DNA of 61,161 nt, counting the filler, from Hausera hauseri (Eukaryota), in NCBI GenBank assembly GCA_046269625.1. It is 12 parts of 12 records of this genome, joined end to end, with 100 filler letters (N's around TTAATTAATTAA, not from the genome) between each part and the next. Parts side by side here need not be neighbours in the genome. Positions count along the whole stretch, not along the records: positions 36,006 to 41,761 come from JBJURY010193971.1; positions 41,862 to 46,166 come from JBJURY010646219.1; 10 more parts are not named here. The stretch is one strand, 5' to 3'. The stretch's first letter is position 1; every line of letters begins with the position of its first letter. Below the pieces are notes generated by a model that was not told where the DNA came from, did not search any database, and worked only from the letters and a program-made list of their open reading frames with translations. This document shows positions 33,890 through 55,464 of the stretch, piece by piece. A program made the position numbers and the translations under genes.

Positions 33890-34087
33890 AAGATTGACTT
33901 CAGTGATTATGCGAGAGTTCTGCAGGCGCAGACTCACATAATATCAGAGATGCGAAGAATCCAGTCTAGGGATTATAACATTGAGACAGTAAAGCTGCAG
34001 AAGGACAGCCTAGATTGGAGGGATGACAAGAGACAGATCCTAGAAGATGAAATCCAAACAATATCTCACGGGTATGTTGCATTGTGA
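33890..34087 (+). pseudogene. polB: C-terminal fragment of another pPolB
   Basis: MRRIQSRDYNIETVKLQKDSLDWRDDKRQILEDEIQTISHGY, the conserved DDKR...T..HGY end of Polinton pPolB. Confidence 0.85.
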
Positions 34088-34261
34088 ATATGTAAATAGA
34101 TTTTTTGTATTGTTTTTTTTACGATGTTTTGTATTGTTGTATCAGTAAATCTTGCTCAAAAATCGTGTTGTGTTTTTAATTAAGTCATTAGAGATGTTGG
34201 GTAAGGCCAATTAATTAAATACTATATAGGTCAAATAAAACTATACAAGTATTTTCATAAC

Positions 34262-34782
34262 GCATTTATTTTATAGCAATATAACTTTGACATAGCGATA
34301 AACACTTTTTATAAGCAGAATATGAACCATGTTCATTATAAATACATGTAATTTTTTTTGGCATAGCTACCAAAGATGCCACATTCATACGTTCATATTC
34401 GTAATTCCGGAAATGTACTGCTAAATATCTTCTTTCGATCATCAGCATGGTCCTTGCCATAGAACGTGGCCTCATGTATGTCATATATAGTCTCAATGTC
34501 TTTCATGCGGCGATTTCTACAAAACAGGTATTATATTCATCCGACGTCAGTTTGTGATGATACTGCGTCAGATAGGCATTTGTTGCTTATGTCTTGTCTG
34601 TGCAGCAATGTATTTTAGGCCTAAAATAGTATATGTTATTTCGTATGTACTAAAATTCACTTAGGCGATACACAAAGTAATGGATTAAACATATTCTCTA
34701 CTGACATTATACAGAATTCCTTAATCATGTATTCATTTGTATTATCCACAAATCCCTCCAAGTCAATAAAACAGATAGACAT
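34262..34782 (-). pseudogene. Polinton-associated DEDD-like exonuclease ORF, disrupted
   Basis: Starts MSICFIDLEGFVDNTNEYMIKEFC (ExoI-like D-x-E). C-terminal C..H..(C)A segment in ORF 34266-34496. Confidence 0.55.
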
Positions 34783-34828
34783 TTTTAACAACATTTATCA
34801 ACACAACAATAACAACGTTTATAACATT

Positions 34829-35165
34829 TTATCTACATTGACGTCTAAGCCAGTTCGCACAATAATTCCCACGTAGAAATGACAATGGATGTTGATACAT
34901 AATGTCATTGTATGTGACAGGTTGTCTCATACGTTCCAATTTCGTCACCAGTGGTGATGGGTAATACATACCAAGTGGATCAAATACTTTAACATTATCT
35001 GGTGAAACATGTATTGCTATCCAATGTTCTCCTGGTAAATTAGCAGAATGTGTATTAGTTACATATCCTCCATTGATCAGATATTCGGGAACTTTATCCA
35101 AAGGATATACTCCACGGAGATTTCGGAGTCTGCCCAAGGTCTTTTCAATCTGAAATGTACTGCAT
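34829..35165 (-). CDS. Adenain-type cysteine protease (capsid maturation protease), catalytic Cys apparently mutated to Arg
   Basis: GVYPLD, VTNTH...PGEHWIAI, FDPLG, Q.PLSFLRGNYC (expected CG.YC). Confidence 0.9.
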
Positions 35166-35219
35166 GTATAAATTATATAATTCCATAAAACTTACTTCAT
35201 ATCAACATCCAACAATATT

Positions 35220-35905
35220 TACTAGTAATGTTTATGCAATTTTAATCCACCTTTTCGAATTTGTATTTCACTATCGAAAAGTCCATGTGCATATATTGTA
35301 ACAGCATTTTCTAATGCCTTGTCGAATCTTAAATCTAATTTCCAATTGCCTGTTCCTGGCATTTATGGCTGATCAATATCAAAATCCGACGCAAAAACAA
35401 ATGTAAAGAACAAATACTTTCCTTTGAATTCATCCATAGAGATGCAATTATTCATATTTTTATTCTCAAGTCCCATGTTTAGTATTATTGACCCATAACA
35501 TGCTTCAGCAAAGTTATTCTTTTCAAAGTCTACTCTATATCTATCCCTATAGTCAATTCCTGGAAATAGGGTAAGGGAACTAATATTGAAGTGATCAGAT
35601 GCTGAACAGTATAGGTGTATTCACCACTGACTTTACTACTAGTCTGAAATGTTACCAGTACGAATTTTGGTAGACGTTCATCACCAAATAGATTGTCCTT
35701 GTATTCGCCATGTGATCCCTTGGAAATTAAAAACTGAACTATTTTTGCTCTTCGTTTGGGATACATGGCATTTTAACTATCAAGATCCAATGTATGGACC
35801 ATTCTCACAGATTCCTGAGAATGAACACGTTGTATCAGTAATTTAGCCTCCATAACGTCTGTATGTCACTTTATTTCCGTTTCAATACCACTCTTTGCAT
35901 AATGA
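35220..35905 (-). pseudogene. Polinton major capsid protein, C-terminal half
   Basis: EAKLLIQRV..SV..H..L..NAMYP, DNLFGDERLPKFVLVTF, GNWKLDLRFDKALENAVTI. Located next to adenain. Confidence 0.85.
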
Positions 35906-36005: not shown

Positions 36006-36605
36006 TATGGGTTTGAGATTTGCAACGGCGGTTTTCAAATAAAAGACATTGTCGCTGCTTTTAAGCCGAATCATGACTTTAACACCGGGCAGTAGGTATT
36101 TCGGCTGATCGAAAAAGTCAAAGTACAGCGGTACACACATTGTAAGTACTTCTGATTCTGCCACCCATGCCTGACGGTTTGCCGGAGTGGCGTCATATCC
36201 GATGATTTTCGTCAAGTGAGTCGTTTTCCTCTCAGTATTGTAATTCAGAGCCGTTTCAATGAGTGCTTTGATACTGTATAGACTGATGTTGTCTTCGATT
36301 TTGACATTGTTCAGTCAGTGAAGCCTCCTGGAACAGTGTGAGGAAAAAGTAATTGGCTGATGTGACAATGTCTGTTGCAGGAGAACCGTTGACGAGTCCT
36401 TTTTAACAAGGACTTTTACATAGAGTAACGTATCGTTTAAATCCAGGTATTCATTGTCCGATACCATAATGTTGAATTGAATGTCAATGTTATTGTTCGT
36501 TGAAAACGAATCAACGGGGTAGATTTCTTCAAATGCCGCATTGTCAATAATAACTTGTGGCGCGCCTTTATCAAATATACACAATTCAGATATTTCAGAT
36601 GCCAT
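36006..36605 (-). pseudogene. Polinton major capsid protein, N-terminal half
   Basis: SELCIFD..PQV.I...EEIYP...IQFNI..EYLDLNDTLLYVKV, and PLYFDFFDQPKYLLPGVKVMIRL. Confidence 0.9.
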
Positions 36606-36616
36606 TTGTCTATCAA

Positions 36617-36982
36617 TCAATCGAAAATCTTACGATGGCGACGTTTGCTTATAGCTGATGAGCTCGATGATGCTCTACGGCGTTTTCTCATCATCAAGCC
36701 ACTGAAAAGAAATTGTTTTTTGACCGATTCAACGACTCCCGGTGTCGAGTTTTTTATTTCTAACAAGGCGTGTTCCTTCATAGATGGTAAAATCAATTTG
36801 TTTTCATATAGTACGTCCTGTGCTTTTTTTTCTGTCACGGTTCCAATACGCTTCAACACCGGAAATTCTAAATGTGCCAATGTACGCAACCATCCAGAGC
36901 CATACTGTGTACCAACGAAATGCGACAGTTCACCGCCCTGCTTGGGTTTACTGCAAATGGAAACGAGTTCGGAATCAATCAT
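36617..36982 (-). CDS. Small Polinton virion core-type protein upstream of the major capsid gene
   Basis: QGG..FVGTQYGSGWLRTL..PVLK motif and a basic KRRR..KRRHRKIF tail. Conserved position between the penton and MCP genes. Confidence 0.7.
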   Translation of the reverse strand: MIDSELVSICSKPKQGGELSHFVGTQYGSGWLRTLAHLEFPVLKRIGTVTEKKAQDVLYENKLILPSMKEHALLEIKNSTPGVVESVKKQFLFSGLMMRKRRRASSSSSAISKRRHRKIFD

Positions 36983-36989
36983 GTTGGAT

Positions 36990-38057
36990 TCGACGGAAAT
37001 GAAGAGTTAGACTGGTTGTGATACCGTACGAAAATTCAATAAGTTAGCCCGCGTCTCATCGGATATTCTCTTCAACATTGTTTATAGATGTAGATGCCAC
37101 AGGTAGGTACATTGGATTATTGAGTTTGACAATGACATTGTCGCCAGCAATATACTTGCTGCTATCCGAATAAATTGCATGGAGTAGCGGTACACGTACT
37201 CCACCGACCAAAATTGGTTCGGTGATATTCACGTAAACGTACATTTGACTTAGTCCAGTTTTCAGTTTGGGTTTAAGTGTTGCAACATTTGCCGCTGCTG
37301 TCTTCGTATTCGATGCCTCAAACCGCTGTTTTTCAAAACCCAATACCATGGTCAAAGCTTTGTCCAACGAAATGCCGACAATATCCTTAGCCAGTTCAAA
37401 TTTAATGTACGCACTTGCATCTAATTCGAAAACTTTAAATATCGCCTTGTACTTTTGATTTGAAAAAACTTTTTGACAGAAATGTGCTAAAGATTTGCAA
37501 TAGACATTGTCTCCAATCGATACGTATGACGTTGACACCCTTTCTACTGTATAGGTAAATTTCACCGTTGTCTAATAATATACGGGACTTAATCTTGGAC
37601 CAACTACACATTCATTTTTAATATGTTTACCTTTGTACTCTGTATTTTCGAACCCAAATTTCTGCGCCATCTCAGAGGACTCAAAGGTAACAGTAAATTC
37701 AAAATTTGTCATAAAATGTAAGTTTTGATCTAAAATAAAAACACCGATTTTGCCGTGTGAACCGTAATTTGCTTCGGTCGTGCAAATGGCCGATTCTCCA
37801 ACTGTTATTTTATTGCTAGTAAGTATCAGAAGACAAGAATGTGTTTTGGTTTCAGTAACAGTCGTGTTGTACATTATTTTCATACAACTTTTCAATGTCA
37901 CCGGTGCGTAGGGGAACTTAAATTCCGTCAGTGCAACCTCCCATTGTCTAGCAGATAAACACAAAGGATTGTTCCAATCTACAACGTATTCAATGGCTGA
38001 ATTGTTCGGACGAGTCGTCGAACAACTGTTGCTCGTCAACACCATGTAAATACTCAT
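36990..38057 (-). pseudogene. Minor capsid (penton-like) gene, copy B
   Basis: YMVLTSNS..PNN...WEVALTE N-terminus; MYVYVNITEPILVGGVRVPLL..NPMYLPV C-terminus. ORFs 37572-38057 and 37056-37565 are in frame across one TAG. Confidence 0.85.
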
Positions 38058-38069
38058 GATTTCGATAAT

Positions 38070-39142
38070 GATAATGATGATGGTGATACTGTTGACGCAG
38101 TTTGTTTACTATCGACGTTGACGACGTCGAAAATGTAACGTTAAGTGTGTCGTTGATCCGAACAGAAATTTAATGGGTTCCCAAAATTCATCAAACATAT
38201 ACACGGAAATACTGTTCACAATATTGAGAGACAGTGATAAGTACATGGGTCTGAACGTAATAACGCGAACAGTTTCACCCGATGATGTTTTGTACGTGTC
38301 AGAATCCAGTCTGAAGTCAGCAGTTGTTTACGTTCTCCACCAACGAGTACGGATTCGGTTAAGTTTGTTACAATGTTGATTCGGTGAAATGTTCCATAGA
38401 GTTGTGGTTGGTATTTGTCAACAATAAATCGTTCAACAATGCTTTGATAAAATTCATGTCGTGAAAAACCCAGATTCCGAGCCAATAATTAATCAAAGGC
38501 AAAATATGTAATATTGTCATGGAGTGTAATCGAAATATGACCATCTTCGTTTATTTCACATGTCTTTACGGCTAATGTAGTCGTTTTCTTGACGTATTCA
38601 CACAATTCCAGTTAGGTTTCCATTAGTAAATCGTGTGGTACAATACTTGAGCGGAAGACTGATTCTGACTTAGTTTACTTTACTATAATATCAGATTCCG
38701 CATCGGATAAAGAGTCCAATTTTTCACCAATTATAACATGTTCACCTATCCGTAGACGTTTTGAGTGTACATTGACTGGTTGAAAACCCCATGCCTGAGC
38801 ATCAACTATAGAATTAAACTGCATTTCCATGGGATTTCGATGCATTAGTTTCATACGGTAGTTTGAAAAATCAACATAAACCGAGAAATGTCGCGAATAA
38901 TTGCGAAGAGTATATCGGTTATTGTGTCGGATTGTCCGCAAAGGACTTGAAATAGGGTACGTTTCTTGTCGGGTAAAGTAAATACCACTGTTTTGACGTA
39001 TTGTCATTGGTGAAAATGTAAATTTGAATTCCGTCAAAGCCACTTCCCAGGCTCTCTGTGCAATGGTAAACTGTTTAACGGTATTGTCATGTTGTGATAA
39101 TGATCTGTTAATATCAAGTACAAAGCAAATGCTGCTGCTCAT
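38070..39142 (-). pseudogene. Minor capsid (penton-like) gene, copy A
   Basis: WEVALTEFKF near the N-terminus and TNLTESVLVGGERKQLL near the C-terminus, paralogous to copy B. Confidence 0.75.
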
Positions 39143-40190
39143 TGAATCTGTGATGCAAAAATCCAACTCGATGCAGTGTATCCGTGCCTCTTGATGAGAT
39201 ATTGTTCATTCGAACCTTTGCCACGTGAACGTAGAATTTCTCAAATACTTTATACATCGGGTTTCTCGGGCAGTACCTGCAGTTTCTGTTTGTAGAATTT
39301 ACCGCGTATTTCCTCACCGTTTTTATCCTGTAAAACGTACATGACAGGTATTTGTTTTGTGTTGATTGCCGAAATGCGGGAAACCTTGTCGCTCCAGTTC
39401 TGATTGAAATTCTTAATGAATGGTGTAATACTTATTTTCAAAATGCGTACGTAAGCACCGATTTTATATTTTGGGTGTTTAATTGCTCGTTGTCGGTTTT
39501 TATAAAGTCACATGTCCAAATCATCGATTACGTCAACCGGACGCATTCCGTTGATTCCACGGTGTGTCGAGTAATTATGTACATGAATAATATCCGGCAG
39601 GACATCTACACAGCGTTTGTTGCCTTGCTTCGTAAAGAATTTATTTAGACGACAACGCAATGTTCGATTAAATCGTTCAACGAGTACAGCCTTGTATTGG
39701 AAAACACCGAGTAGTGATTTACGCCGAACCGTTTCAAGACAGCTGCAACGTGGGCGTTGTAGTATTCCTTACCCAAATCCGTTTGTAAATGTTTCCAAAG
39801 CTGTTGTTGTTGCTGAATCAGTGTCTGAACAGCGTCGGCAATCTCTTTACCGGATTTAGGTTTCACGGCAATTGCACGTGCAAAACGACTAAACACATCA
39901 ACGCATGTCAGCACGTACCGATACCTACGGTTGATGCTGGCGTATGGAATCATTTCCATCAGATCCATTTGCCATACGTTATTTACACCGAAAGCACGGT
40001 ATGCACGAGTTGGAAACCGCCTTCTTATCGGTTTGTTTAGGCTGTATGCTGTTTCCCGAGCCAACGTTGGGTTTGTCACCCAGTCTGTTTGACAGTCTTT
40101 GCCAGTTTGTCGACGCCAGTATAGCTGACGGGATGACGCGGATCGAACCACACGTCGCTCATCGTTGCCCTCGGTGTTGTTGACTATGTC
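39140..40190 (-). pseudogene. Polinton retroviral-like integrase with C-terminal chromodomain-like segment
   Basis: AYSLNKPIRRRFP, WQMDL, YVLTCVDVFSRFA, LQTDLGKEYYN, VERFNRTL, GEEIRGKFY. Frameshifted. Confidence 0.93.
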
Positions 40191-40310
40191 GTTTTCATTA
40201 GCATTACAGCAATTAGAAAGAAACGTTGATGAAAGATTCGGTAAACTGGGACTAAATGATGAAAACCATGCACTCATGTCGCTACATCATCATATACTTA
40301 TCGTCATTGT

Positions 40311-40640
40311 TTATACTATGCTGCAAAACCAGAGTCCGCCCAATAATAATGTGACAACCGGTAGAATTGCACCAAGGAATCCGCCATCTTGCTGGTATAT
40401 GAATTCTCGTTTTAGTCGTTTACTACGAGCGTTGGCAAGGCCAATGAGCCGTTTTCGATACTTTAGTAAATTCCGCTTTCCACTACCAATGTCAACGTGA
40501 CCCACAACGATAATGTATAAAATTTCCATCAAATCGTCTACTACAAATTGCGGAAATGATCGCAGCATGTTTCGCTTATGTCTCGTAGGTGCCTTGAGCA
40601 AAGCAATAAAGTACGGCTGACTACCTTTGAATATCGCATT
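40311..40640 (-). CDS. Small conserved Polinton virion protein ending in Q.GGFL amphipathic helix
   Basis: LMEI..IV.G.V.I...LLKYRKRL..LA...KR..QQDGGFLGAILP. Located between the ATPase and integrase genes. Confidence 0.72.
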   Translation of the reverse strand, partial: NAIFKGSQPYFIALLKAPTRHKRNMLRSFPQFVVDDLMEILYIIVVGHVDIGSGKRNLLKYRKRLIGLANARSKRLKREFIYQQDGGFLGAILPVVTLLLGGLWFCSIV

Positions 40641-40868
40641 TTTTTTCTTTTTGGACGTATTGATGCTGATGAGACGTAGTTGTCTATAACCGTTGCCACT
40701 GTGACGGTAATTTGCGTCTAGTTGTTGTTCAACGAAGCACAGAATTGATTAATCGCTTGACTGTAGCGGCGCTTCGTTTTTATACACGTTTCTTGACGCT
40801 GGACACCCGCTTGGTAGGTTTACGTTTAAGAATTGTTTTTCGGAAATTCTTCATTTTTACTACTATCA

Positions 40869-41500
40869 TCACCATGTCGATTTTCGAATTTGCTTATAGA
40901 CATACACGCTTTTCGGATTGAAATTATCTGTTTGTATACGCATGTCATCTGAAAATTGTTGTATAAAGTCAATAAGCAGATACCCGTGTGGCTTGATCGT
41001 AGCATCACGATATGCATCGATTAAATAGGCCCGGTTGTGAGGAAATGCTGATCGTGCTACGGGAGTTGGATCACGGGGATTTTTGAACAGTACCAAACAG
41101 TATACATTTAGATTTCGTGCTGGATGCTGTCCATCTGAATGGAACATGTTTCGCGTAATGAAAATTACCGTTACACTACGGTGTCGTGCAATCTTAATGA
41201 ACATATTATTGAAGTCGGTTTGTTTGGCGGCCTGTTTAAATAAATCGTCAATAACAATAATTTCACCGTGTCTTAAACATTCAGACCATTTCTATTACCG
41301 TTATCGATTTTAATTTACAAAATTCTTGATGTGTCAGACCGGAATCTCCACCACTGGAACCCTGATACCTGTAAATGTGATTGAACCGTGGTGAATGGGA
41401 TATGTTGTGGTATTTCTGCAATAGCTTACAAACAAGGTGTGTTTTACCACTTTCATTTGGGCCTACATACTGGAAAATTGCATTATTCTGCAGCATTATG
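40869..41500 (-). pseudogene. FtsK/HerA-like (A32-type) DNA packaging ATPase
   Basis: Walker A GPNESGKT, Walker B IIVIDDL, ARHR.VTVIFI, LFKNPRD, PHGYLLID. Confidence 0.92.
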
Positions 41501-42420
41501 TTAATAAGATACGCTTCGTCACGCGTTTTTGTTTATATTCACGCCATACAGATATATAAATATTGCTACAGTATGAACACTGTTTCCATAATGTTAGCCA
41601 ATATCAACTATCAGGGACATGTTACAGAGTGGATTAACGCATTACCATTTAATTAATGGAAGCCGAGGCAATATGTCCACAAATATCCACTGGATTTTAC
41701 ATGTATTATATTTCAATCGGGAAAGTGTCGTATTATGAGTTTTCTCAAACCAATCACAAATNNNNNNNNNNNNNNNNNNNNNNNNNNNNNNNNNNNNNNN
41801 NNNNNTTAATTAATTAANNNNNNNNNNNNNNNNNNNNNNNNNNNNNNNNNNNNNNNNNNNNCAATCAAAAGATACAATGTAAGTATTAAAAAAGAAAAAT
41901 ATTACAAAAATAAAGCCGAAGTTGAAGGAATATACAGTAAGAAGGATGATAATACAGTATCATTAAATAGAAAATTAAGTTAGTCAAAGTTCATAGCTGG
42001 ATCACAATGTCACTGGAACGCAATTCTGATAACTGATCTTCTGTCTGGATTCCATAGAGATTCTCCAATATATAATCGTTTGAGGATCAGTACATAATCA
42101 TCCGAAGGTTTGCTTTGTAAGTATCGTTGAGTATTAAGGGTTTTCCTGCCTTGGCTTAGGGATGAGGATAAGATCCATCTGAATTGAAATAGGTTTCATG
42201 GTGACAATAGTTTCGTCATCTAATTCTTTGAGAATTTCTGATTGGTATCTGATACCAGCCATATGTAGTGTTTGATATTGTGAACTTTTATATATTATAG
42301 CCACAAGTTTTCCAAAGTCGGGATTTGTATACAACTGTTTTTAGTTGTAATTTTTGATTTTGGCTGATGTACATAAAATACATTTACTGTTCTAGTTTTT
42401 CCTCCGTATAAAAGAACTGA

Positions 42421-44004
42421 TCATTTTTTTCCAATCTGTTGAATTTCTCGTTGTTCTTTCTCTAGTTTCTGCATTATCATATCAGTTTGTTTCTTTATTT
42501 GATCGAACACACTTGGTGTATTACTTTGTATGACTTCTTGTTTATACTCAAGATGATATTTCTCTGGTATTTTTTGAAACGAACCGTTGTGGACTAGGTT
42601 ATTTGGTGGTGATGTCCATTCCAGTGTTAACTTTTCATTGGAACATTTTTCGGTGATGAGAACGTGAATTCGCATGATTAGCTGTAACACAGATTCAGCT
42701 TGCTTAGGAAAATGTTCATCAATTCCGTATACTTGGGGTAATTGAGTGAGATTGACTTTTTGTAGTCCCATCTCATGAAATCGATCCTTTGTATTGGATA
42801 AAGCCAATAAGTCAATTATTCCATGCAGAACTTCGATAGGAATTCGTAGTGCTTTCAATAAGGCTACAGTGTTAACCGATATTATCGTATATCCAAATAG
42901 GTATTTGATTATTTCTTGACGAACAGTTTCTTCATCTTCTGCCTGCATCATAAGAGCTAATGTTATTCCGTGGTGATGCTCATTAGTATTAGATATCCTT
43001 GTTCTAGGATTACTAAAGGCATGATAAATTAACAACTTTTTCTCGTCTGCGATTGTGATTTCGATTGGTACTGGGTTACCTTTAACTCCATACGCAAACG
43101 ATGCTGCAAGATACCTATAATTGACAACTGTGGTTAGTTGAAAATTATTGGTATTTTGAATATCTGGTAATGTATGAAACAATGGTGATTGCAGTCCGAT
43201 TAGCATATCCTCTTTGGAGACTATTTCAAATGCTAATACTGCCGGTGTAGTAATTATTCTGAATCGAATAGGAGTTCTCATTGCTAAGTGAGAGATTTCT
43301 ATAGTGGCGTAGGCAGATTTGATTGCTTTATCCTTGTTACTGGAGGAATAATTGTCATTGCCAGAAACAAATTGTATTTGTCCTTGAGCAATGTGTATAT
43401 AAAGGAAGTCGTATCGATCTTGTATTTTTAGCAATTGTTGCAGACTGATAGTGTAGTGTGGTTTTTCCATTGATATTATCCGGAAACTGCGATTGTGGCA
43501 TGTTGATTCTTTGAGTTGATTATCCAGAAACTTGGCTTCTGGAAAAAATATATCTGGATTTTGCTCTGAGAATTGTAAAATAGTTTTATAGAACTTGGAA
43601 GAGAATCGATTTTTTGGTCCTTCGTGTAGGACTATATGTTTTTGTAGTAACTCTTCCCAAGTTTTGTTTTTGATTTTTTCTTCTCGGCCTTCAGCCAGAT
43701 TCTTATTCATATTTGTTTTTAATTCTTGATATTTCTGCTTCTTTTCTGATGGTATTTCTGAGAAATCTGGTGGTGGTCTTCTTATTTCAACAACTGATTT
43801 TAGTGGTTTTGGTAAAATTGAAGGAACTGATTGTGGCTGATATTGTAATATTCCACATACCATTGGTGGTCCAAATGATGGATTTGAAAATCGTAATTCT
43901 TGGCTGGGTGGTATAACCCTTCGTTTAGGGTTAGGGACCACAGTTTGTACTGATGCATCCGAATCGGAACCGGAATCGTCCAGATCAATTTGGAAATGTG
44001 CCAT
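42421..44004 (-). CDS. 527-aa Gypsy cargo ORF (3' part of the 728-codon frame) with putative inactive retropepsin-like and DEDDh exonuclease-like domains
   Basis: Uninterrupted frame with an internal ATG at 44004 (MAHFQIDLDDSGSDSD). Domain calls are by eye only. Confidence 0.6.
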   Translation of the reverse strand: MAHFQIDLDDSGSDSDASVQTVVPNPKRRVIPPSQELRFSNPSFGPPMVCGILQYQPQSVPSILPKPLKSVVEIRRPPPDFSEIPSEKKQKYQELKTNMNKNLAEGREEKIKNKTWEELLQKHIVLHEGPKNRFSSKFYKTILQFSEQNPDIFFPEAKFLDNQLKESTCHNRSFRIISMEKPHYTISLQQLLKIQDRYDFLYIHIAQGQIQFVSGNDNYSSSNKDKAIKSAYATIEISHLAMRTPIRFRIITTPAVLAFEIVSKEDMLIGLQSPLFHTLPDIQNTNNFQLTTVVNYRYLAASFAYGVKGNPVPIEITIADEKKLLIYHAFSNPRTRISNTNEHHHGITLALMMQAEDEETVRQEIIKYLFGYTIISVNTVALLKALRIPIEVLHGIIDLLALSNTKDRFHEMGLQKVNLTQLPQVYGIDEHFPKQAESVLQLIMRIHVLITEKCSNEKLTLEWTSPPNNLVHNGSFQKIPEKYHLEYKQEVIQSNTPSVFDQIKKQTDMIMQKLEKEQREIQQIGKK

Positions 44005-45470
44005 TTTGTCGAATTGTATTCTAAAAGAAAATATTAACGTTTGATTTCGTTTTTGTACGAAATCAGTTTGTGTGGGTAGATAAATTTTTATTGGTTGTTC
44101 ATATGAACCTTCAACAACTGGTTGGTTAAAAAGATTTCTAGTTTGGACATGTAAGCTTTCTACATCTTTAGAGATCGTAGTCAGCTTTAGCTCACTTACG
44201 CTTAATTTTGTCAATTCCACAGTTATCGTAGCAACATTTGTTACTTGTAAACAACACATAACAAACATTGTCGTTATTAAGGGTTGCATTTTTGTATTGA
44301 TTAAGTTTAACTGCATATGACTTGTATTTCTTTTATTTACGTCAGTTTGTCTCGTAAAGATCTGCAATTGTTTTTTCTGGTTCTTTATTATATTTCTTTT
44401 TCTCTTCCATACAAGTAACTGTCGTACAGTAAATGGTGTTGTGATAATTAACAAAAATGTCAATATTACTATAAACGGTATTATAGTTTTTAACATATTT
44501 GGTTCATATATTGTATCATCTGTATATGTCTTTGTTAGATATATTGGTTGGTATGGTATGTTTTTAGATGAGTATATTTTAGTTTGAGTCCTAATTTTGT
44601 TATGCAAGGTTTGTTTACCTTCTTGTGTAAAAATTACTAAATACTCTTCATCAGGTTAAAGTTCAGAACATCTTGTAGTTCTTTCTTTTTCTTTAATTAC
44701 CGAATAAATGATATGATATTTTCCTATGCATGATATCTGTATCGGTTGAGTAGCTGGAGTTAGGGTTTTGAACTCGATGTACGCATCTTTAATTATGTTT
44801 GAAACTGATGGTATGTTCTGTAGGACTTGTGGCTTAACCTGCAAGACTTTTTTACTTACTATAATTGTAATTTCGATTCTAGTTATTGGACTAGTTGTTA
44901 GAACTGAAATTTCGAAAAATTGTGGAACTGACATTTGAATATGGTAGTGTAGGGCCTTTTACCTGACGTGTGAATAAGAAATTTCGGGAAATAATAAGTG
45001 ATTTGTAAGTCAACATCTGAATTTAGCGTGGGTCTTTTTAGATCGATTTTATCTATAAGTCTAGGTTCCGTATCTTTATCTTGAGTAAAGAAAAAAGATT
45101 GACCTATCTTTTCTATATGTACTTGTCTGGCTATCGGCTCAAATTCATTTTGTTTAGCCAATATACCATCCACTGGAAGGTAATAAAGTTGTAATATGCA
45201 TACTTCATTCATAAGAGGTACCTTACATTGTTTTGTAAGTAACCATATATCTTGTTTACTAGGTGGGATCATTAAATATCCTATTTTTGAAAATACAGGT
45301 TCTCCTTCGAGTAGACAATCTATCAAATAAGGTTCATATTTCCAACTAATTTTGATTTTTAAATTTAGGTTTGCATTTACTGGTTCGGTTACTAACGTTT
45401 GACCTACTGTTGATAAAATGAATCCCAAAATTACTACTAAAAATAGTAATTCTTCTAGACTACAGGCTGG
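44005..45470 (-). pseudogene. Env-like / type-I membrane protein region following integrase
   Basis: Signal-like LLFLVVILGFILSTVG, about 300-aa beta-rich region, TM IIPFIVILTFLLIITTPFTV followed by KRKR. One frameshift (about 44935) and one TAA (44656). Confidence 0.55.
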
Positions 45471-45499
45471 TTTAATAGTAGTCTTTTTATATGATCTAA

Positions 45500-46166
45500 G
45501 CGAATATTTAGGTTTATAATGAGGTGTAGGTTCTTTCGGTTCTTTAGTTACTCTCTGTACGGATACACACTCTATTCTGGTTTTCTTGCCAGTACCTTTT
45601 TCTATAAAGACATTTTCTGGAGTCGATTTTACTACCAGATACGGTCCTTTACCAGTTCTAGTTAATTTTAAGGATTTGCCTGGTTTGGCAACGGGATAAT
45701 GTATCATTACTTTATCGCCTGGTTGAAAGTTATGAGGGTTACTCTTTTTATCATATTGTTCCTTATAAGTTGCTTTGTATTCGCGTATGGCATATTTAGC
45801 TCTAATCCAATAATTAGCAAGACTATGTACAACGCCTGCATGAATAACTTCTTCATCCGTATTGATAGGAATGTCCTTTTCTGGCAACAGCTGTATATCT
45901 AATGGTAGAAGAGGTTTTCTGCCATAAAGCAATTCAAACGGTGTATACTTACTAGATGTCGGTGTGGTAGCTATTGCGAATTGAACTACTTTTAAATGTT
46001 CATCCCAATCCTTCTGGGATTTATCTATCATTGTTGACAGGAGACACTGGACGGTGTAGTTTAATCGTTCTACTTTTCCATTACATTGTGGATGATATGC
46101 TGTGGTTAGCAATCGCTTAGTTTGACATATGTCAGTTATTTCTCTTAGTAATTGGCTTCTAAAATT
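45500..46166 (-). mobile_element. Ty3/Gypsy integrase core and GPY region (third family)
   Basis: TTAYHPQCNGKVERLN, DWDEHL, TPFELLYGRKP, FQPGDKV, KGPYLV. Confidence 0.95.
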
Positions 46167-46266: not shown

Positions 46267-49200
46267 CTGATGATTTTTTGTTCCGATACGCTCCTGGTCG
46301 ACTGTTGTTCCATGACCATTTTCATAGGCTTGGAGAAAGTTTTTAAACTGTAAATCGATTTGTTTCAGATTTACGCCTTTGCATTTCAATACGGACTTGC
46401 TTTGCGTTTTCAACGCGTAACATTTCGGTCTTAGGAAAATTCCTTCTGTACTCGATACTGCCTTTGCTTTCATCTTTAAACTTGTCTATAACAGCCGAGA
46501 AACGAGTGTAATAAAGAGGGTCGCTAGTATCGTAATTCAACGTGTCCAACTCTTCATTAGAAATCATTGCTGGCAAGAGTTGTGATCTTAAATCAACTCC
46601 ACGGCACTCAAGGAAAAACTATCCGTGTAACCAGCAATGATATTTAATTCACAATTAAACTGGTGTTTATATTTATCCAGTTTGATGTAATTAAGCTCAT
46701 ACATCCGTAGCTTGGAAAGATCAAGTACGGCCTGACCATGTATGAGGGCCTATCTAGTGTAACTGTCTTTATCGACGAGAACAGCAACCAGATCATCAGC
46801 AATAATGATACTTTCTTTGAACTGGGCTTTTCTGGCATATGTTACAAGCCTCTTTGCATTGTTACAAAACCTCAAATTGGACCGTTTCATCAGATTTTCC
46901 ACTGTTTTCCATATAAACTGTTACTTTTGAGCTTAAAAAGTCCTTTCAAAAGCATTTTTAGCAGCAGCCCTCTTTGCTATATTAAGGTTGATGTAGTCCT
47001 TAAAGACAACCTTGATCAAATTCAACGGCCCCATGTACCTTGTCAACCACAGCACCTAGCTTGATATATAGCTGCAAAAGCCTATAATGGAAAACATAGT
47101 TGGACTTTCGCTCATGTGTTAGCAGCAATTTCTTTACTCGTGAATCAGGAGGGCATTGGCTGATTGGAGCTAAAAACAGTTGGTCAAACTTATCGCGCTC
47201 ATCAGCCGAAATGCTCAAATTAACTTCGAAAACGAGACCACTTTTTTGTGTAACAGTGTCGACAAAAGGCAACTGTGAAATCAGGCTGTTTAATCTATCC
47301 TCATTGTAAATCCAAACCAAATTTGCAAATGTCAAAGGTTTCGATAAAGCCCAGCCGTACAAATTATTCACATCTATATACAAGATAGTGGTGCTTTCAT
47401 CGGCGGTAACCCTATGTTTATTTACAAAAGTCATGCCACCGCGAATACCGGATTGGAAAAAACTATACATTTCAGGATCCTGAATGAGCTCAATACGATA
47501 CGGACTCGTTTTTAGTGCAGTTGCACAAGATAATCCTGGAATAGACACGAAATTAACCGCTTCTAAGCCATCCTCCAACTTAACCCGCTTTCTGAACCGT
47601 TCAAAAATATTACCTAACAAGTATACATCTAGTTTCACGTATACTAACATGTAATCTAAAAGCGAGTTACATTTATATCTTGATCAGGTAAGTTGCGCCT
47701 CCTGATAATTGCTGTCACTAACACCATCCAATTTCGGTGGTAATTCAAAAATCGACTGCAAGTCAGTAAACGATTTGGCTGCAGTGTATGGAAAAACGCC
47801 TTTTCTCTTAATAATATCAGTTGGAAAGGCTGTTTCGGTGAAGTCTAAATTAGAGGCCAGTGTCTTCAGTGAAGCAGGTAAAAACTGAAGCGTGTCCGAA
47901 AAGCCAATTGAAACAGACTTTTTACCTGAACATCGTATCATTGCCTGCATAGTGAGGAATTTTTCAGTTGTTTGTGGAATGACACTTATTTGCCAACTGC
48001 CGAATTTAATGCATGCTTTAAAATATGATGAACATCATATCCACGCAAATTATGGAATATAACAGATAAATTGTACCTAATCTGTCGAGCCAAGTTACGT
48101 TTACTACATGTTGGGCCTAGGAATTTACCCGTAACACTACAGTGATCTCGAACAAATTGAGAACCATTTTCATGACAGTTAACAATATATGACGTTCTTA
48201 AACCGAAACCATTCAGGTGATGTTAGTGGGATCATTGTTTTTTTGCATTTTTGTACTAGAGGGAAACCAAGCTTTTCACAATTTACTCTAAACAAGTCAG
48301 AAACTGAACGATAGCATTTTCACCAACAAACTGCCTATATTGAATATTTGTTGATGAAACTAGCAAAAGACCGGCTACAGCAGGCAAATGAATATGCTTG
48401 ACTTTATCGTCAGGACACAGAACAGATTCAAAGTCAGCATATGACGAAAGGAGGACTTATAGATTTGGACCAGTCCTTAAATTCACAAAACTTGTTTTCA
48501 GGTATTCTGTACAAAGTTGTGCAATTGGAAGACATGCACATTGGTAAATGCTTAGCATAAGCAGTGTCAAGCCTAAATCCATACAAACATTTCTCACACC
48601 AATAATTACATTGAATTCTCATACCATTAGACCGTATGTTCAACAACCGATTAAAATGAGGAATTGCAACATAATAGAACTTATCGTCATTTCCTAAAAT
48701 CATCAGTTTCACTACAGTACGATTCGGATTTTTGCTTCTATACAAAATATCAACGAATGGATTTTTCACAATATCCTCATCAAAATCCACATTTTCCTCA
48801 TCGTGAAACAAGAAGACATTAATTGACAACTGTGGATTCTGCCTTTCAAATTTACTTATGTTGCGTATTTTCATAGGCATATCTTCTGCAGAATACTTCA
48901 ACTCCCTTAAATAAGGAATATAATTACTAACTCTGTTTTTATGCCTATTATTGTCGATAGACGAATATTTGGTCACTGCGAGAAGAGTACAAGAAACAAA
49001 CTATCCCCATTTTGCACGTTAATAACTGCCTTTGAAAAATTTAAAGCGTCAGTTGTTGGTAGATAGGATTTTCCAGATAGATAGGGTAGTGGCTTGTTCT
49101 AACTATATGAAAACAGTATTTCAGAATTTTCACTACCTTTCAACCACTACCAAATTCGGCAATATTTTTAACTTGCTCACGCAAAGTATCAGCTACAGAT

Positions 49201-49720
49201 TGTGGGTAAGCCTGCTCATAAGGGACAGCTCTGTATGAAATATGTTTCCTTAAAGTCACCTTCAGCATTCGGTAACAGAATCTCAAGTCTGTATTGAATC
49301 TTACACGAAGAAAACCGAGAAGTGTACGTATCTACAGTATTCAGAATTTCCTCAGGTGATCGAGTACAAACGAGTTGGTCAGGCGAAACATCAAAGCAAA
49401 GGTGCACATAATTATTAGCGATCATAGTTTGAACATTAAGTCGTAGCTTTTTCACAGAATCCACTTTCGATTTCTTTGCCTGAATTTCGGTTCATCGGTC
49501 GTTTAGCCGGCTGACGAGATGGTTTTATCGGCTGTTTAGCTGGTTTAGCTGGTTTATCAGTTATCGGAAGTCGTTGCTGTGCTACGAACTGTTTTGCCAT
49601 ATTTATCATTTCTCGATGTTCTTGCAGTATGGTTTTTGGTTTGTTAAAGTCAGATAGTGTTGATGGTGTGGCAAGTTGGACAAATGTAAAATAGGGACCT
49701 ATCAACTTTCACTCCATATT
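46267..49720 (-). pseudogene. polB: pPolB pseudogene of a distinct Polinton/adintovirus lineage
   Basis: FHNLRGYD, KRKGVFPY, GIRGGMT, YIDVNNLYGWA, YTDSF, KFKDE, LRPKCY, KCKGV. N-terminus differs from the 29448 and 52121 copies. Confidence 0.92.
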
Positions 49721-50674
49721 TGGCCATAGCGTTGTTGCATTTTTTTTCAAAATGATCTTTGTTGGTGTAATAGTTGAAGTGGCAAATCTAGAAGTTATAA
49801 ATGAAAGAAAAAAAAGAAAATCCAACTAACCATTTTAGCAGATTTTTGAAAGTTTTAAATGACTTTTAAGCCTCATTTATACTTATTTTCAACCAATCAG
49901 ATTTTATATAAGAGTATATATACTCCAAAACTGATTTGTCTTAGTGATATTCAAAAAATCAATGCTCGACCGGTTAGGTGTACCATAGATTTTGTGTAAA
50001 ATGCATTCGCAAATGGCTGCAAGATTGTTCGTCATGTCCAACATGTAGGAAAACAAGTCTATATTTTGCAATATACACTAAAGATGGACAATTATTGTGT
50101 TAACTACTATCTGTCATTGAAATAAAAAAATTTTTGTTACTTTTTCTATAAAGAAAAAACAAGACTAAAAAACTAAGATTTATTGACAACTATTTATCCA
50201 AAACTGCATACATAGAAGCCACAAGATTCATTTGTTTATTTATCAAGTCCTTATATTCCCGTAAAAGATTTAGCATATCCGTTCTCGTTTCAGATCAATT
50301 ACCGGCTGTAGAATTGGTTTCGGTGGTAAAATTTCAATCAAGTTAAATTTAACATCAATGTATCGTCATTAGCCAACAAAAACGAATTAAATNNNNNNNN
50401 NNNNNNNNNNNNNNNNNNNNNNNNNNNNNNNNNNNNTTAATTAATTAANNNNNNNNNNNNNNNNNNNNNNNNNNNNNNNNNNNNNNNNNNNNGATTTTCT
50501 ACCTCGAGGGCGGTACAATACAATCGCACCAAATGCAAAATTATCAATCCCGAATGACAATTTGCATGAAATGAATTAAGATTTTCTCAGACATATACAT
50601 ACAAATATTAGAGAAAGTTTCATACAAGACAATCATATTAAAATGGTTTTGAAATTGCAATAATCTTACAAATC

Positions 50675-51045
50675 ATCTTATAATAATTATATCGAGATCG
50701 ACGGAGAATGGAGTAATTTGGAAACCCAAGATACTGCCTCGTTGACTGATAGATTTCTTTTTTTAAATTACAACTAGAGTTTTGACGTCTTAAAACGATT
50801 TTTATCGAAGCGCTTTGCGGTACACGGATTACAAGAAATTTCCTATTTTACTTGTAGAAAATAATAAAATCGACCTTATCAATCAACGGAAGGTCTCCAA
50901 ATCAGATATTGAAGCACTGGCAAAAGACTTGCAGATCGATTTCATCGAAACCAGTGCTAAATGTTTACCAATCCGAATCGATGAAACATTTGCTCAAATA
51001 GTTCCGAAAATGACAAACGGAAAACGATATCCGATCAAATCCTAA
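50675..51045 (+). pseudogene. MRAS: Ras-family GTPase relic, most like M-Ras/R-Ras
   Basis: IEIDGEWSNLETQDTA, FPILLVENNKIDL (G4), FIETSAKCLPIRIDETF (G5 followed by the extra residues seen in M-Ras). Internal deletion, no P-loop seen. Confidence 0.7.
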
Positions 51046-51652
51046 ATGACGTTGAACAAATGTTCATTTCATTCACATCCGAACATTTTGAAAATGATAA
51101 TTTGAGTTCTACGCACACTATCGAAAAAAACCGCATGATTGCTAGTAATATCTGGGGACTGTCTCTACTGCTATTAAATCGTTTGTAAATCCAACGGTTT
51201 CTAGATATTTTTTCTCGATTTATCCGTGTCATTATTTTCCTTTTTTGAATTTGAACGTCTTTATGTCTATTTGATTATTTTCTTCCCACCTCACAATTTC
51301 ATTCGATTTATCAGCTTCGTTGTCTATTAACATGAAGATAGAAAATGACGAGTTATCTGATTCAGTCGATTTGTATTGTTACCATTTCATATCAAGATGA
51401 ATATTTTTAACTGGAACAAAATTTCCCCTTTGGTTTCTAGTTATGTTACTATAATTAATTCTTTTCAGTATTTCCTATACTGTGGTCTGATAAGATTTCA
51501 TCCGAATGAGATGTGTGCTATCATACGTTTTTCATCAAGGATCCTAGTGGTGGTGGTTTTAATTACTATTGTTAATAAAGCTCTCGAAGGCCTATTTCTT
51601 TTAATTGCGATACATATAGAATATTAGACCGTATCGAACGTTTTATTTTAAG

Positions 51653-51842
51653 AAATGTTTCGTCAGTAAAAAAGATAACACTGTATGACAATTTTGAAAT
51701 TCACTGCATTATGTGCTTTACGATACTAAGGATCATCGTTAATCAAAACTTATTGGCTGAGGATGAAGGCGAATGCGTGATCTGCCTCGTTGAATTGATA
51801 CGTGGAAACATTGTTGCAACATTACCATGTTTCTGTAAATAG
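51653..51842 (+). pseudogene. ZNRF1/2-like zinc finger plus truncated RING-H2 fragment
   Basis: DNFEIHCIMCFTILRIIVNQNLLAEDEGECVICLVELIRGNIVATLPCFC, closely following the ZNRF pattern E.H..MCL..PR..YN...L..D.GECVICL.EL..G..IA.LPC.C. Confidence 0.75.
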
Positions 51843-52120
51843 TTCTATTATTTATTTTTCCTTGTTTTCTTTTGATTTTGTGCATAAGTTATTTTGATCC
51901 TTAAAGAGCCAAATTGTGTGTCGAACAAGTGAACTTGCATTTTATTCGAAATGAAATTTCAGAGTTTGTTTAAATATTGTAAATAAAGTTTAAAAAGTTG
52001 TAAGCGATTTTTGAATCAAAATTTTAAATTAAATAAATCAATTTTTTATCCGACATTATTCTGTTTCTATTCTGCGTCTATTTATCGTTGGAATTTTATC
52101 GCATAAATATTGAATATTTA

Positions 52121-54827
52121 TCAGTCAGATTTAATACCATACCAACTCATCCCTGAAGCTGTAAAGAAATGAGCCGGATACAAAGCATGGCTATTCATTT
52201 TAACATCCCTAAAACTCTCAAAGACATCTGTCAGCAGCAGCACGTCCGTCTTGAGGTATATGTCGCTGTATTCCCCTAATGTTCGACATTGGAATGCATG
52301 CCAAACGTTCTGGGCATGCTGGTAGTCAGCACCACTGATATCGCAATCAGAGAGAACATTGTAAAAGTCCTTGACCGACAATGAGGTCTCATCAAGTGTT
52401 TCCCATGAAGTTATGCAGTCATAAGGAAACATGCCTTTCCTCTTGACGAGGTCAAATGCCGTGGGGAAGAACCGCTTTGTCTCCTTGAGTTCTTTTGCAG
52501 CGAGGGTCATCACTAAACTGTCCAGTGACGAGCTCATTAAGCGGAAACTGTCTATGAAACGAAATCTGATGCGGCCTACAGGCTTGGTGAAAGTGATGTA
52601 TTTTTCCTCACTGTTTGGGATCACATCTATATTTTCATCAATGTTGCCTAATTCTCGGACTATGAAATGGGAATCATAGCCACTGAGATTATGAACACTA
52701 CAGACACATATGTACACGTTTTGCAGCGATGATTGAAGTTATTGCATGCTGCCCCTCGATATACACATGTAAAGTTGCAATGATCCTTGACTTTATGATT
52801 ATTCTTGGTGAAGGACTTGTCGCACAAGTAACATGTTGTTGCTCTGCGCCATTCTTCAGCTTGTTTCTACGACATGCTCATATTATCCTTATGCTGCTGA
52901 AGCATGTTTTTAAGCTTATGAGCCATGTATTCAAGTCGTTTCATAAAATGTGCTGCTTCACCTGGACGTCTAAGTCGATATGGTTCACTGTCCAATACTT
53001 TGGCATACATGCAATATGACGAGAGTTCATGATATTGGTATGACGTTTTGCTGCGATTTTGAAAACTGGTAGTGCAGCTGTGAATTGGCCGGAGAATAGC
53101 CTCAAAGTCGCTATAGATAACTATTGGAACCTTGATCTTTTACTCGAACTCCTTGAATTTAATGTAGTCTTCCCTGGTAAATTCTGGCTTGATACAATAA
53201 TTGTTGTTGCAATACATTTTGTACTCTGCAAGCTTGTCCACAGCTGAATCACCACTGAAATGGGAAAAGCATCGTTTACATATTTCTAATCTTTCCTTAT
53301 GTTTCGTATTTATGGATCTGACAAGACGCTCAAAGTTTTTGATCCAAACATAATGTTTCTTTTCTCCGTCTTCTAGTAGGAGCAGATCCCTATGATCTTC
53401 CAATTCAGTATCATATATATGCAGGGGATAAAATTTGTCCACCTCGACCAATCCAATGATGTTGATGGATATGTTGTTGTTTCGGCTGAACTTCTTAATT
53501 TCATCTAAGGATGGAGGGAACTTAATACATTGGAAGTCATAGTTGTGCTTCTGATCATTATATAGCTAAACTCGATCTTCTGCATGTTTTTGATCACGTA
53601 CGAGTTTACATAAAATGGCATACATAAAATACATGTTGTCATTATTATGGACACTAACACGTGCCTTTTTATTAGCGATCCATTTCCGAAGCTGAATATA
53701 AGGACTGTCCCGCATTGGAGAGTACTTGTGAACATACACAAGCAATCTCCTGATGGTGCCAGAGTCCATCCGTTCTTCTTATCCTGACTCTGATCGGCTT
53801 CATGGATCATCTTTGCATGCCCTTCATTCAGCTATTCTACTATATTAGTGGCTTCAAAAATGGGTCGATTTCTGGTCTTGAAGGCCCTTTCGGACTCTTC
53901 GCCATCAACATTAAAGTATATGGCCCCAAGTTTCATATTATCCTTAATGGCCTTGAGCTCAGCTATGTTTTCCTGGAGAATCCCCTCTATTTCTTCATCT
54001 GTTTACTCCAGAAATTCCTTAATGGTTGTTTGACCAGTTGCATCAATGACATATTTGCGGCATTTCCTCTTTAATGTTGGAGCATCAACTGGCCGCTGTC
54101 TTTGACTCTTTGATGGAGCCGCTACGCCTGATGCGCCTGATGCGCTTGATGCGCGTTTTAATCCTGCATCTGGCTGTACTGCAGGCTGTGGTACTGCAAA
54201 TTGTAGTACTGCAGGCTGTGGTACTGAAGGCTGTAGTACTGCAGGCTGTGTTGCAACTGGCTTATGTTCATTAAAGATGATATTCTTTGACTTTGACGCG
54301 AAGTCAGTCAAATGATGTTTGTGATCTTCATAAAACTGTATGTATTCTCCATCACATACAGCTTCACATCATGGGTATATTAATAAATGATCCTATTGAC
54401 TTTGTGTCCATAATAGCTCTTCATGGTATTGTGGTAATTTTGAGGGTTGTGTATTGTACATGTGCAATACACATATGAACTGCATCTTTGATTTTCCTTT
54501 AAAGTCGTTATTGGTATATTGGTATTGAATATTTGTTTTTCCGACTTAGTGAAAAAAATCAAATGCTGCTTATGGACATTGTAAAAGTCTTTATAATTGA
54601 TTTGGCACACTGCCACACATGTAGGACATATATAATAATAAACCCTGTTGTACATAATACAGTGTCAATTTTCAGGCTTGGGGATTTGAGCCAACCATTC
54701 GCTGTGAAGTTTGCACATCTAAAAATCAACCAATTATTTTTGGAGTACAATTAAAAAACTCAACATTCGTTGAAGTGATTTTGGAAATAATGAAATATAT
54801 TGCCATATCACCATGTATTGCCTCAGA
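52121..54827 (-). pseudogene. polB: Polinton pPolB pseudogene, N-terminal half (same family as 29448-32860)
   Basis: HNLSGYDSHFI, RFIDSFRLMSSSLDSLV, RKGMFPYD, YLKTDVLLLTDVFESFR. Truncated at about 52135. Confidence 0.93.
54165..54252 (-). repeat. 15-bp coding minisatellite (QPAV-like pentapeptides) in the pPolB N-terminal extension
   Basis: GCAGGCTGTGGTACT-like units repeated about 6 times. Confidence 0.8.
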
Positions 54828-55440: not shown

Positions 55441-55464
55441 TTAACACCTTGTGGTGCCCATGGC

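What the first reader, a model, noticed from the sequence alone, without database searches (positions are those of the whole stretch)
41862..46166. Gypsy retrotransposon with about 3 kb of extra cargo coding sequence fused behind integrase
Seen: the integrase frame does not stop after the GPY motif. With only one frameshift (about 44935) and one TAA (44656), coding sequence continues to 42421, including an unbroken 728-codon frame. Most other elements in the window carry many more lesions. Established: some Ty3/Gypsy elements carry env or other extra ORFs, including DEDD-type exonucleases in nematode and bdelloid rotifer elements. Inference: the order IN / membrane protein / pseudo-protease / pseudo-exonuclease matches no family I recognise and may define an undescribed retrovirus-like lineage.
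Basis: partly seen in the sequence, partly recalled or inferred. Interest (0 to 1): 0.85.

Follow-up and report, generated by a model that had tools for sequence, protein, structure and literature searches.

The report
Gypsy element carrying dead ISG20-like exonuclease
Behind its integrase, this multicopy jumping gene carries a conserved run of extra coding sequence, with a likely membrane protein and a relative of RNA-trimming enzymes (ISG20/REXO4 type) that lacks its catalytic acids yet stays under selection, so it likely serves the element as an RNA-binding helper.

Summary
The stretch is one whole 4,305-bp contig between artificial linkers, so gag, RT and LTRs cannot be seen. After a Ty3/Gypsy-type integrase, coding runs on for about 3.5 kb. 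One sequencing run holds many diverged copies. The stop at 44656-58 is not shared by them, and in the exonuclease-like part 31 of 40 listed differences are silent (30% expected). A search of 1.84 billion proteins found seven unnamed relatives sharing a two-domain unit: an unassigned 140-aa domain plus a DEDDh exonuclease closest to ISG20L2, ISG20 and SDN1. Three relatives keep the catalytic acids; four and this copy lack the motif I pair. The 'pseudo-protease' is not supported. Membrane topology, a splice-acceptor candidate and the stand-alone relatives suggest that this unit is made as a separate protein, not as part of one fusion. Known rotifer cargo is DEDDy-type and intact. Earlier scan notes report Gypsy elements with RRP6 or TatD nuclease cargo on other DNA, none with this family. 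LTR enclosure, expression and the relatives' genomic context are untested. Verdict: new variant of a known kind.

The parts
45552..46166 (-). C-terminal half of a Ty3/Gypsy-type integrase (last catalytic Glu region, GPY at 45639-45647); cut off by the contig end
   Evidence: 54 proteins at E<=1e-5, nearly all LTR-retrotransposon pol, best 39-41% identity over this part only; GPY motif; long unplaced branch in a 48-row tree
45405..45449 (-). Hydrophobic, signal-peptide-like stretch in frame with integrase
   Evidence: Read directly from the translation; no predictor run; P0016 and P0006 show a like stretch between integrase and an env-like region
44497..45404 (-). Candidate ectodomain of about 300 residues, interrupted by the frame change (44901-44961) and by the stop at 44656-44658; family unknown
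   Evidence: No meaningful Pfam, PHROGs or NCBIfam match; all 10 contigs covering 44658 differ from this copy there
44904..44962 (-). Region of the frame change; also a 59-nt GT-AG pair of the right phase (intron candidate, unproven)
44419..44496 (-). Transmembrane segment, followed by a basic tail
   Evidence: Kyte-Doolittle 19-mer peak 2.44; 10 Lys/Arg in residues 81-120
44005..44289 (-). Second signal-like stretch (44230-44289) and a 75-residue module after it; family unknown
   Evidence: Hydropathy 1.73; no family match; covered by diverged copies (records 5, 6)
44002..44021 (-). Splice-acceptor candidate (AG ending at 44021) and in-frame ATG at 44004 in a strong context
   Evidence: Shares rank 3 of 256 AG sites by a crude score and is the most T-rich of the 14 best; the only one of 22 in-frame ATGs with both A at -3 and G at +4 apart from those at 43863 and 43470; no RNA data
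43603..44004 (-). N-terminal part of the likely separate 527-aa protein: acidic stretch, KRR motif (nuclear-signal-like, recalled pattern), proline-rich and charged stretch
   Evidence: Sequence itself; not shared with the relatives
43183..43602 (-).
   Evidence: Profile of this part from 7 relatives finds it at 45 bits, E 3e-14; best of 2000 shuffles 10.6; no PDB or common Pfam match; not a retropepsin; cupin likeness inconclusive
42646..43122 (-). DEDDh exonuclease fold of ISG20/REXO4 type with none of the four catalytic acids
   Evidence: Own DnaQ profile 17.8 bits, P 1.2e-7, best of 2000 shuffles 9.6; family profile hits ISG20L2 E 2e-21, ISG20 5e-12, SDN1 9e-10; hhalign 97.6%; 31 of 40 listed differences silent
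42424..42513 (-). C-terminal charged helix, coiled-coil-like
   Evidence: Helix 715-743 is the best-scored part (pLDDT 57-73) of an otherwise unusable model
41995..42420 (-). Further, more broken coding stretch; family unknown
   Evidence: The stop at 42087-42089 differs in all 3 covering contigs, and 4 of 5 listed differences in 42078-42102 fall on third positions of one frame; no Pfam match; dUTPase idea not supported

Best explanation
This is the 3' half of a multicopy Ty3/Gypsy-type element whose integrase is followed by a likely membrane-protein gene and by an ISG20/REXO4-type exonuclease fold without catalytic acids that is conserved between copies and likely acts as an RNA-binding helper of the element. 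Shown: integrase with GPY, open frames, many diverged copies, purifying selection on the exonuclease-like part, the fold, the missing acids, and a wider family with both intact and dead members. Inferred, step 1 (about 0.6): the stretch after integrase is a signal sequence, so an ectodomain of about 300 residues enters the ER and is anchored by the segment at 44419-44496 as a type I membrane protein; an envelope-like role in cell-to-cell spread is possible (about 0.35). Inferred, step 2 (about 0.6): the 527-aa protein from ATG 44004 is made from a spliced subgenomic RNA, so it stays out of the ER and can reach the nucleus. Inferred, step 3 (about 0.45): its dead exonuclease fold binds the element's own RNA, shielding it from host 3' trimming or helping unspliced RNA out of the nucleus, as CERV does for Cer1.
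For: Copies: 954 contigs of one run lie on the stretch, 507 of them under 90% alike, with depth in 30 of 30 bins. Selection: 31 of 40 best-supported differences in 42600-43180 are silent against 30% expected, p 6e-10, pN/pS about 0.13. Listed differences at the two motif I codons 518 and 519 are silent, so the loss is likely old. Fold; Atlas lead RNase_T at 0.82; PHROG_192 E 0.0047. Family: 7 of 8 hits at E<=1e-3 share the two-domain unit; P0057, P0058 and P0060 begin at that unit, keep all four acids and have no hydrophobic segment. Precedent for dead DEDD folds that bind RNA: PML PXL and Exuperantia (PMC13659232, passages), Maelstrom and EXD1 (PMC5408684). Precedent for a spliced nuclear accessory protein after pol: CERV (PMC10309623, passages).
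Against: No LTR, gag or RT is visible, and the 3' end shows no clear polypurine tract and LTR start. No listed contig spans the whole stretch. The genomic context of the seven relatives is unknown, so they may not be retroelement genes. Selection was tested only on 581 bases, and on 40 of 93 differences chosen by support. In the whole-contig table 25 of 31 differences inside the three frames were non-silent; these are places where this copy differs from every laid contig, which fits decay of this copy, but they give no support for selection on the membrane part. The ectodomain has no homologue, no fusion-protein hallmark was tested positive, and splice sites rest on a crude score. Both structure predictions failed (pLDDT 36 and 34).
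Confidence: 0.5

Rival explanations
1. The whole cargo is one polyprotein with pol, cut by signal peptidase and the element's protease into a membrane protein, a small secreted module and the exonuclease-like protein, as in the long single frame of planarian Burro elements; no splicing is needed.
For: Frames run on from integrase without an intergenic gap, and the stop at 44656-58 is not shared. P0016 and P0006 have integrase, signal-like stretch and env-like region in one frame. Burro integrates many domains in one polyprotein (PMC6431247, passages).
Against: After the second signal-like stretch no further transmembrane segment of like strength follows, so the exonuclease-like part would end in the ER lumen. 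Three relatives start at the unit itself.
Confidence: 0.2
2. The dead exonuclease is a counter-defence decoy: it binds small-RNA or cDNA 3' ends, or host nucleases of the ISG20/SDN1/ERI-1 kind, and so blunts silencing or restriction.
For: Closest solved structures are ISG20L2, ISG20 and Small RNA degrading nuclease 1. The Atlas also lists the arenavirus nucleoprotein exonuclease at 0.79, a lead only. Retrotransposon-borne helicases show weak silencing suppression (PMC6338049, part 1 of 4).
Against: Likeness to SDN1 or ISG20 reflects the fold subfamily, not a target. pN/pS of about 0.13 shows no arms-race signal in this part.
Confidence: 0.2
3. The cargo is not part of the retrotransposon: it is a separate repeated element, viral insert or host gene fragment joined to an integrase fragment by nested insertion or misassembly.
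For: None of 54 integrase relatives shares the cargo. The contig is short and unplaced. The relatives' contigs of 2-25 kb could be viruses or other elements.
Against: Integrase reads in frame into the cargo. Depth is continuous across the junction, and one contig lies on both sides of 45308-45523 (table 5). No terminal repeat or target duplication was seen inside the contig.
Confidence: 0.1

Closest known systems
Juno and Vesta LTR retrotransposons of bdelloid rotifers with DEDDy exonuclease ORF3 (PMC5408684; parts 2 and 3 of 5 read)
   Same: Gypsy-type element with a DnaQ-superfamily exonuclease gene after pol.
   Different: There the enzyme is DEDDy (RNase D-like), keeps its catalytic residues and lacks transmembrane or coiled-coil parts. 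Here it is DEDDh of ISG20/REXO4 type, lacks all four acids, has an extra conserved domain and follows a membrane-protein gene.
Cer1 CERV of C. elegans (PMC10309623; passages)
   Same: [quoted passage not shown]
   Different: The paper names no exonuclease (0 occurrences); no sequence comparison with CERV was made; splicing here is only predicted.
Env-carrying Ty3/Gypsy errantiviruses with F-type or gB-type env (PMC13524379; passages)
   Same: Signal peptide, ectodomain and transmembrane anchor after pol.
   Different: The ectodomain here is shorter (about 300 residues), has no Pfam match and no similarity to the env-like tails of P0016 and P0006; more genes follow it.
Pseudo-exonucleases PML PXL, Exuperantia, Maelstrom, EXD1 (PMC13659232 passages; PMC5408684)
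   Same: DEDD fold without catalytic acids, kept for nucleic-acid binding.
   Different: These are host genes. No SAM-like part was tested or seen here, and the partner domain lies N-terminal.
ISG20, ISG20L2, SDN1 (PDB 1wlj, 7yw5, 5z9x)
   Same: Best solved-structure matches of the family profile.
   Different: Active host enzymes; they lack the N-terminal domain of this family.
MDG1-group sORF2 of Drosophila (bioRxiv 10.1101/2025.03.14.642691; abstract and outline)
   Same: Gypsy elements can spread between cells with a membrane protein that is not a classical envelope.
   Different: sORF2 is a short protein; the membrane protein here is several times longer.

Membership tests
Ty3/Gypsy (Metaviridae) LTR retrotransposon | DDE integrase at the end of pol with a GPY/F motif, closest to Gypsy-type pol | tested here: met
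   54 hits, nearly all RT-RNaseH-integrase polyproteins, best 39-41% identity; GPY at codon 174
Ty3/Gypsy (Metaviridae) LTR retrotransposon | Order PR-RT-RH-IN and gag upstream | not testable with these tools
   The contig begins inside the integrase core; no genome is held
Ty3/Gypsy (Metaviridae) LTR retrotransposon | Two LTRs, primer-binding site, polypurine tract and target duplication enclosing the cargo | tested here: inconclusive
   No repeat of the contig elsewhere in the window; the last purine run of 9 or more bases is at 42405, with about 400 likely coding bases after it
Ty3/Gypsy (Metaviridae) LTR retrotransposon | Dispersed, diverged copies | tested here: met
   954 contigs, 68/105/274/507 in the 99+/95-99/90-95/under-90 bands, one run
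DEDDh 3'-5' exonuclease (PF00929) | DnaQ-like fold | tested here: met
   2 of 7 relatives pass the Pfam cut-off; this protein alone gives no Pfam match
DEDDh 3'-5' exonuclease (PF00929) | Four catalytic acidic residues D-E-D-D | tested here: not met
   Aligned residues are A, S, L, V; the motif III His may be kept, where the alignment is least sure. Works-like claim: a fold relative, not an active member
Rotifer DEDDy ORF3 (Juno, Vesta) | RNase D-like DEDDy type with intact residues | tested here: not met
   Family profile finds DEDDh structures only; intact relatives have H-x4-D. No direct comparison with rotifer sequences was made
Errantivirus F-type or gB-type env | Signal peptide, ectodomain, transmembrane anchor | tested here: inconclusive
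   Hydrophobic stretches present; no dedicated predictor available; the gene is broken in this copy
Errantivirus F-type or gB-type env | Homology to class I F or class III gB fusion proteins | tested here: not met
   No Pfam match for the pieces; no BLASTP similarity to the env-like tails of P0016, P0006; remote likeness not excluded without a good model
Retropepsin (A2 protease) fold | Similarity to retropepsin profile, DTG motif | tested here: not met
   33-sequence profile: no hit on the frame; profile-profile probability 0.2%
Cupin barrel (for the unassigned domain) | Similarity to Cupin_2 profile | tested here: inconclusive
   hhalign 0.85%, score 14.7 against 13.4 reversed and 12.6 best of 39 shuffles; best single member P 3e-4

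The most novel reading that the evidence does not exclude
An undescribed lineage of complex, retrovirus-like Gypsy elements with a new type of envelope protein and a spliced Rev/CERV-like regulator built from an ISG20-type exonuclease, whose unnamed metagenome relatives record the passage from active nuclease to dead RNA-binding module inside mobile elements.
Probability: 0.22. Interest if true: 0.82.

Novelty: new variant of a known kind. Interest (0 to 1): 0.58.

Why it matters
Extra genes after pol are known, but almost none has a function. Here one belongs to a small unnamed protein family with both intact and dead members, and the dead form is held by selection. That makes a standing question testable: do nuclease cargoes of retrotransposons act by cutting, or only by binding RNA? 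It also adds ISG20/REXO4-type enzymes, known as host antiviral and small-RNA nucleases, to the genes that such elements have taken up. If the membrane protein is an envelope, it would be of a type other than F and gB.

Tried and rejected
Word-index protein searches for the cargo found nothing; the exhaustive search did, so the first blanks were a sensitivity limit. Pattern scans of viral contigs and metagenome contigs found no relative. The phage 'exonuclease' hit lies antisense to the annotated gene and is rejected. P0062 is a HEAT-repeat protein matching a charged helix and was dropped, leaving 7 of 8 hits. Single-sequence AlphaFold models were unusable, so no fold search was run. Atlas search of residues 120-500: no usable hit. 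Pseudo-protease rejected. dUTPase for the 3' tail, a resemblance I recalled, was not supported by a 3-sequence profile (in one search one row was cut from the wrong strand). Cupin for the unassigned domain: inconclusive. The integrase tree left the element unplaced. Whether the acids were lost once or several times is unresolved: long branches meet. The hydropathy scan of frame A ran on a wrong frame and is not used. No RNA holder was listed; this says nothing on expression. The look-up of the relatives' contigs was closed, so their context is open. Literature searches that found no description of this cargo: (open-access library only; Repbase, Dfam and GyDB were not searchable; no supplements were read, and those of PMC13524379 may list related elements).
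Full report
What the window is. The window is 12 pieces of 4-6.5 kb joined by the linker N44-TTAATTAATTAA-N44. The finding is exactly one piece, 41862-46166. The other pieces hold unrelated mobile elements, and neither DNA nor protein of this piece recurs in them. No genome is held.

The observation. On the minus strand frame A is open for 422 codons (46166-44901), frame B for 100 codons (44958-44659) and, after one stop, for 744 codons (44655-42424). The longest frame in 500 shuffles was 185 codons. The first 200 or so residues are the C-terminal half of an integrase with GPY. A search among longer proteins gave 54 hits at E<=1e-5, nearly all LTR-retrotransposon pol, best 39-41% identical and confined to the integrase. 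In a 48-row tree the integrase is a long branch with no supported neighbour.

Copies. One run holds the stretch; it may be the source sample, so it is no independent sighting. 954 of its contigs lie on the stretch, 507 under 90% alike, with depth in all 30 bins. A contig identical to this copy has depth 8.8, while summed depth is mostly 50-370; this suggests ten or more copies, though the tool warns that the sum is no copy number. At 44658, inside the stop, all 10 covering contigs differ from this copy, so the stop is not a family trait. No listed contig spans the whole stretch; diverged pieces chain over 43772-44960, and one contig lies on both sides of 45308-45523, linking the integrase tail to the cargo.

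The frame change. It lies between 44901 and 44961. No insertion or deletion is listed there among copies. This fits a lesion of this copy near 44960. A 59-nt GT-AG pair of the right phase also sits there, but it is 1 of 6 such pairs by a crude score. I put a private lesion at about 0.7 and an intron at about 0.25.

Selection. In 42600-43180, 31 of the 40 best-supported differences (of 93) are silent; 30% is expected from the observed spectrum (p 6e-10, pN/pS about 0.13). Against this, the 40 rows listed for the whole contig gave 25 non-silent of 31 in the three frames (8 rows lay outside them and the row in the stop was left out). In those rows every laid contig differs from this copy, which fits decay after insertion, but 22 of the 31 come from two stretches covered by one to three contigs. 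Selection on the membrane part is therefore not shown.

The exonuclease-like domain. Pfam, NCBIfam and PDB searches with the single sequence were blank. Leads were the Atlas (RNase_T, 0.82) and PHROG_192 (E 0.0047). A profile from 16 natural DnaQ-like proteins scored residues 534-595 at 17.8 bits, against 9.6 for the best of 2000 shuffles. The exhaustive search returned 8 proteins at E<=1e-3. Seven match residues about 350-660; the eighth is a HEAT-repeat protein and was dropped. All seven are unnamed or 'hypothetical', from ENA or JGI contigs of 2-25 kb. Two pass the Pfam RNase_T cut-off. A profile of this protein and six of them finds ISG20L2 (E 2e-21), ISG20, SDN1, PolC and DnaQ structures. 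In the 8-row alignment three relatives keep D, E, D, H and D; the other four and this copy lack both motif I acids, and this copy has A, S, L and V at the four acidic places. Listed copy differences at codons 518 and 519 are silent. The dead state is thus likely old and conserved, though 53 weaker differences were not shown.

The domain before it. Residues 352-491 are conserved in the family on their own: a profile from the seven relatives scores them 45 bits, shuffles at most 10.6. They do not resemble retropepsins and match no PDB chain or common Pfam family. A cupin likeness is inconclusive.

How it likely works. After integrase come a signal-like stretch, about 300 residues, a strong transmembrane segment and a basic tail: a likely type I membrane protein. 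Two integrase relatives show the same in-frame layout with env-like tails, but the tails are not similar to this one. A second signal-like stretch follows. In a single polyprotein it would send everything downstream into the ER lumen, which makes little sense for a nucleic-acid fold. A T-rich acceptor candidate at 44021 and an ATG in strong context at 44004 offer a way out: a spliced RNA for a 527-aa protein with an acidic stretch, a KRR motif, the two-domain unit and a terminal helix. Three relatives begin right at the unit and have no hydrophobic segment. Dead DEDD folds that bind RNA are known in host proteins, and Cer1 makes a spliced nuclear export factor from the same position. I therefore favour an RNA-binding helper for the element's own RNA. 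Binding, splicing and location are all untested.

Coding likely continues to about 41995: a stop at 42087-42089 differs in all 3 covering contigs, and nearby differences favour third positions. No family was found.

Comparison with what is known. Rotifer Juno and Vesta carry intact DEDDy exonucleases without membrane parts (PMC5408684, parts 2-3 of 5). That paper does not mention nematodes or DEDDh. Capture of genes in place of, after or before env is established (PMC6431247 and PMC5718144, passages). Env in metazoan Gypsy elements is F-type or gB-type in the survey I consulted (PMC13524379, passages). Seven searches of the open library found no Gypsy element with an ISG20-type or dead DEDDh cargo; repeat databases and supplements were not seen. 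Earlier scan notes describe Gypsy elements with RRP6-like, TatD and dioxygenase cargo on other DNA, unchecked by me; none shares words with this protein or with P0058.

Verdict. A real, selected accessory region of a Gypsy-type family, with a cargo protein family not found in print. The kind of event is known; the ISG20-type dead nuclease, its partner domain and the pairing with a membrane protein are new. Interest 0.58.

Noticed in passing
window 1-61161: Eleven identical linkers (44 N, TTAATTAATTAA, 44 N) join 12 unrelated pieces; the window is a concatenation of unplaced contigs, so neighbourhood has no biological meaning.
   Followed up: yes
window 1-4864, 13585-18420, 24231-29347, 54928-61161: Four pieces of another Gypsy-type family, 70-80% alike to each other, with RT, RNase H and integrase matches; unrelated to the finding.
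   Followed up: partly
window 36006-41761, 29448-35905, 46267-54827: Polinton-like pieces: integrase (PF00665) at 39648-40286, B-type DNA polymerase (PF03175) at 47003-47683; three similar frames at 37056-39205 and one at 40869-41291 look like minor capsid and packaging ATPase genes (recalled, no Pfam match).
   Followed up: partly
window 5373-7411: hAT transposase with BED finger and dimerisation domain in two long open frames.
   Followed up: partly
window 9298-9783: C-terminal piece of a LINE protein of a type I recall from bony fish; it may be host or contaminant DNA. No Pfam match.
   Followed up: no
window 16078-17340: A 420-codon frame with weak NAB NCD2 and leucine-rich-repeat matches, both under the cut-off, in the same piece as a Gypsy gag-like frame.
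   Followed up: no
P0055: The best relative carries the same dead two-domain unit and a C-terminal RING finger over the Pfam cut-off: a possible ubiquitin ligase aimed at RNA-bound proteins.
   Followed up: no
P0056, residues about 18-26: A Phe-rich run ending in Arg lies upstream of the unit, as in this frame at the acceptor candidate; it may be a translated pyrimidine tract. Protein-level guess only.
   Followed up: no
P0016, P0006: Gypsy pol proteins with integrase, signal-like stretch and an env-like region ending in a hydrophobic anchor in one frame.
   Followed up: partly
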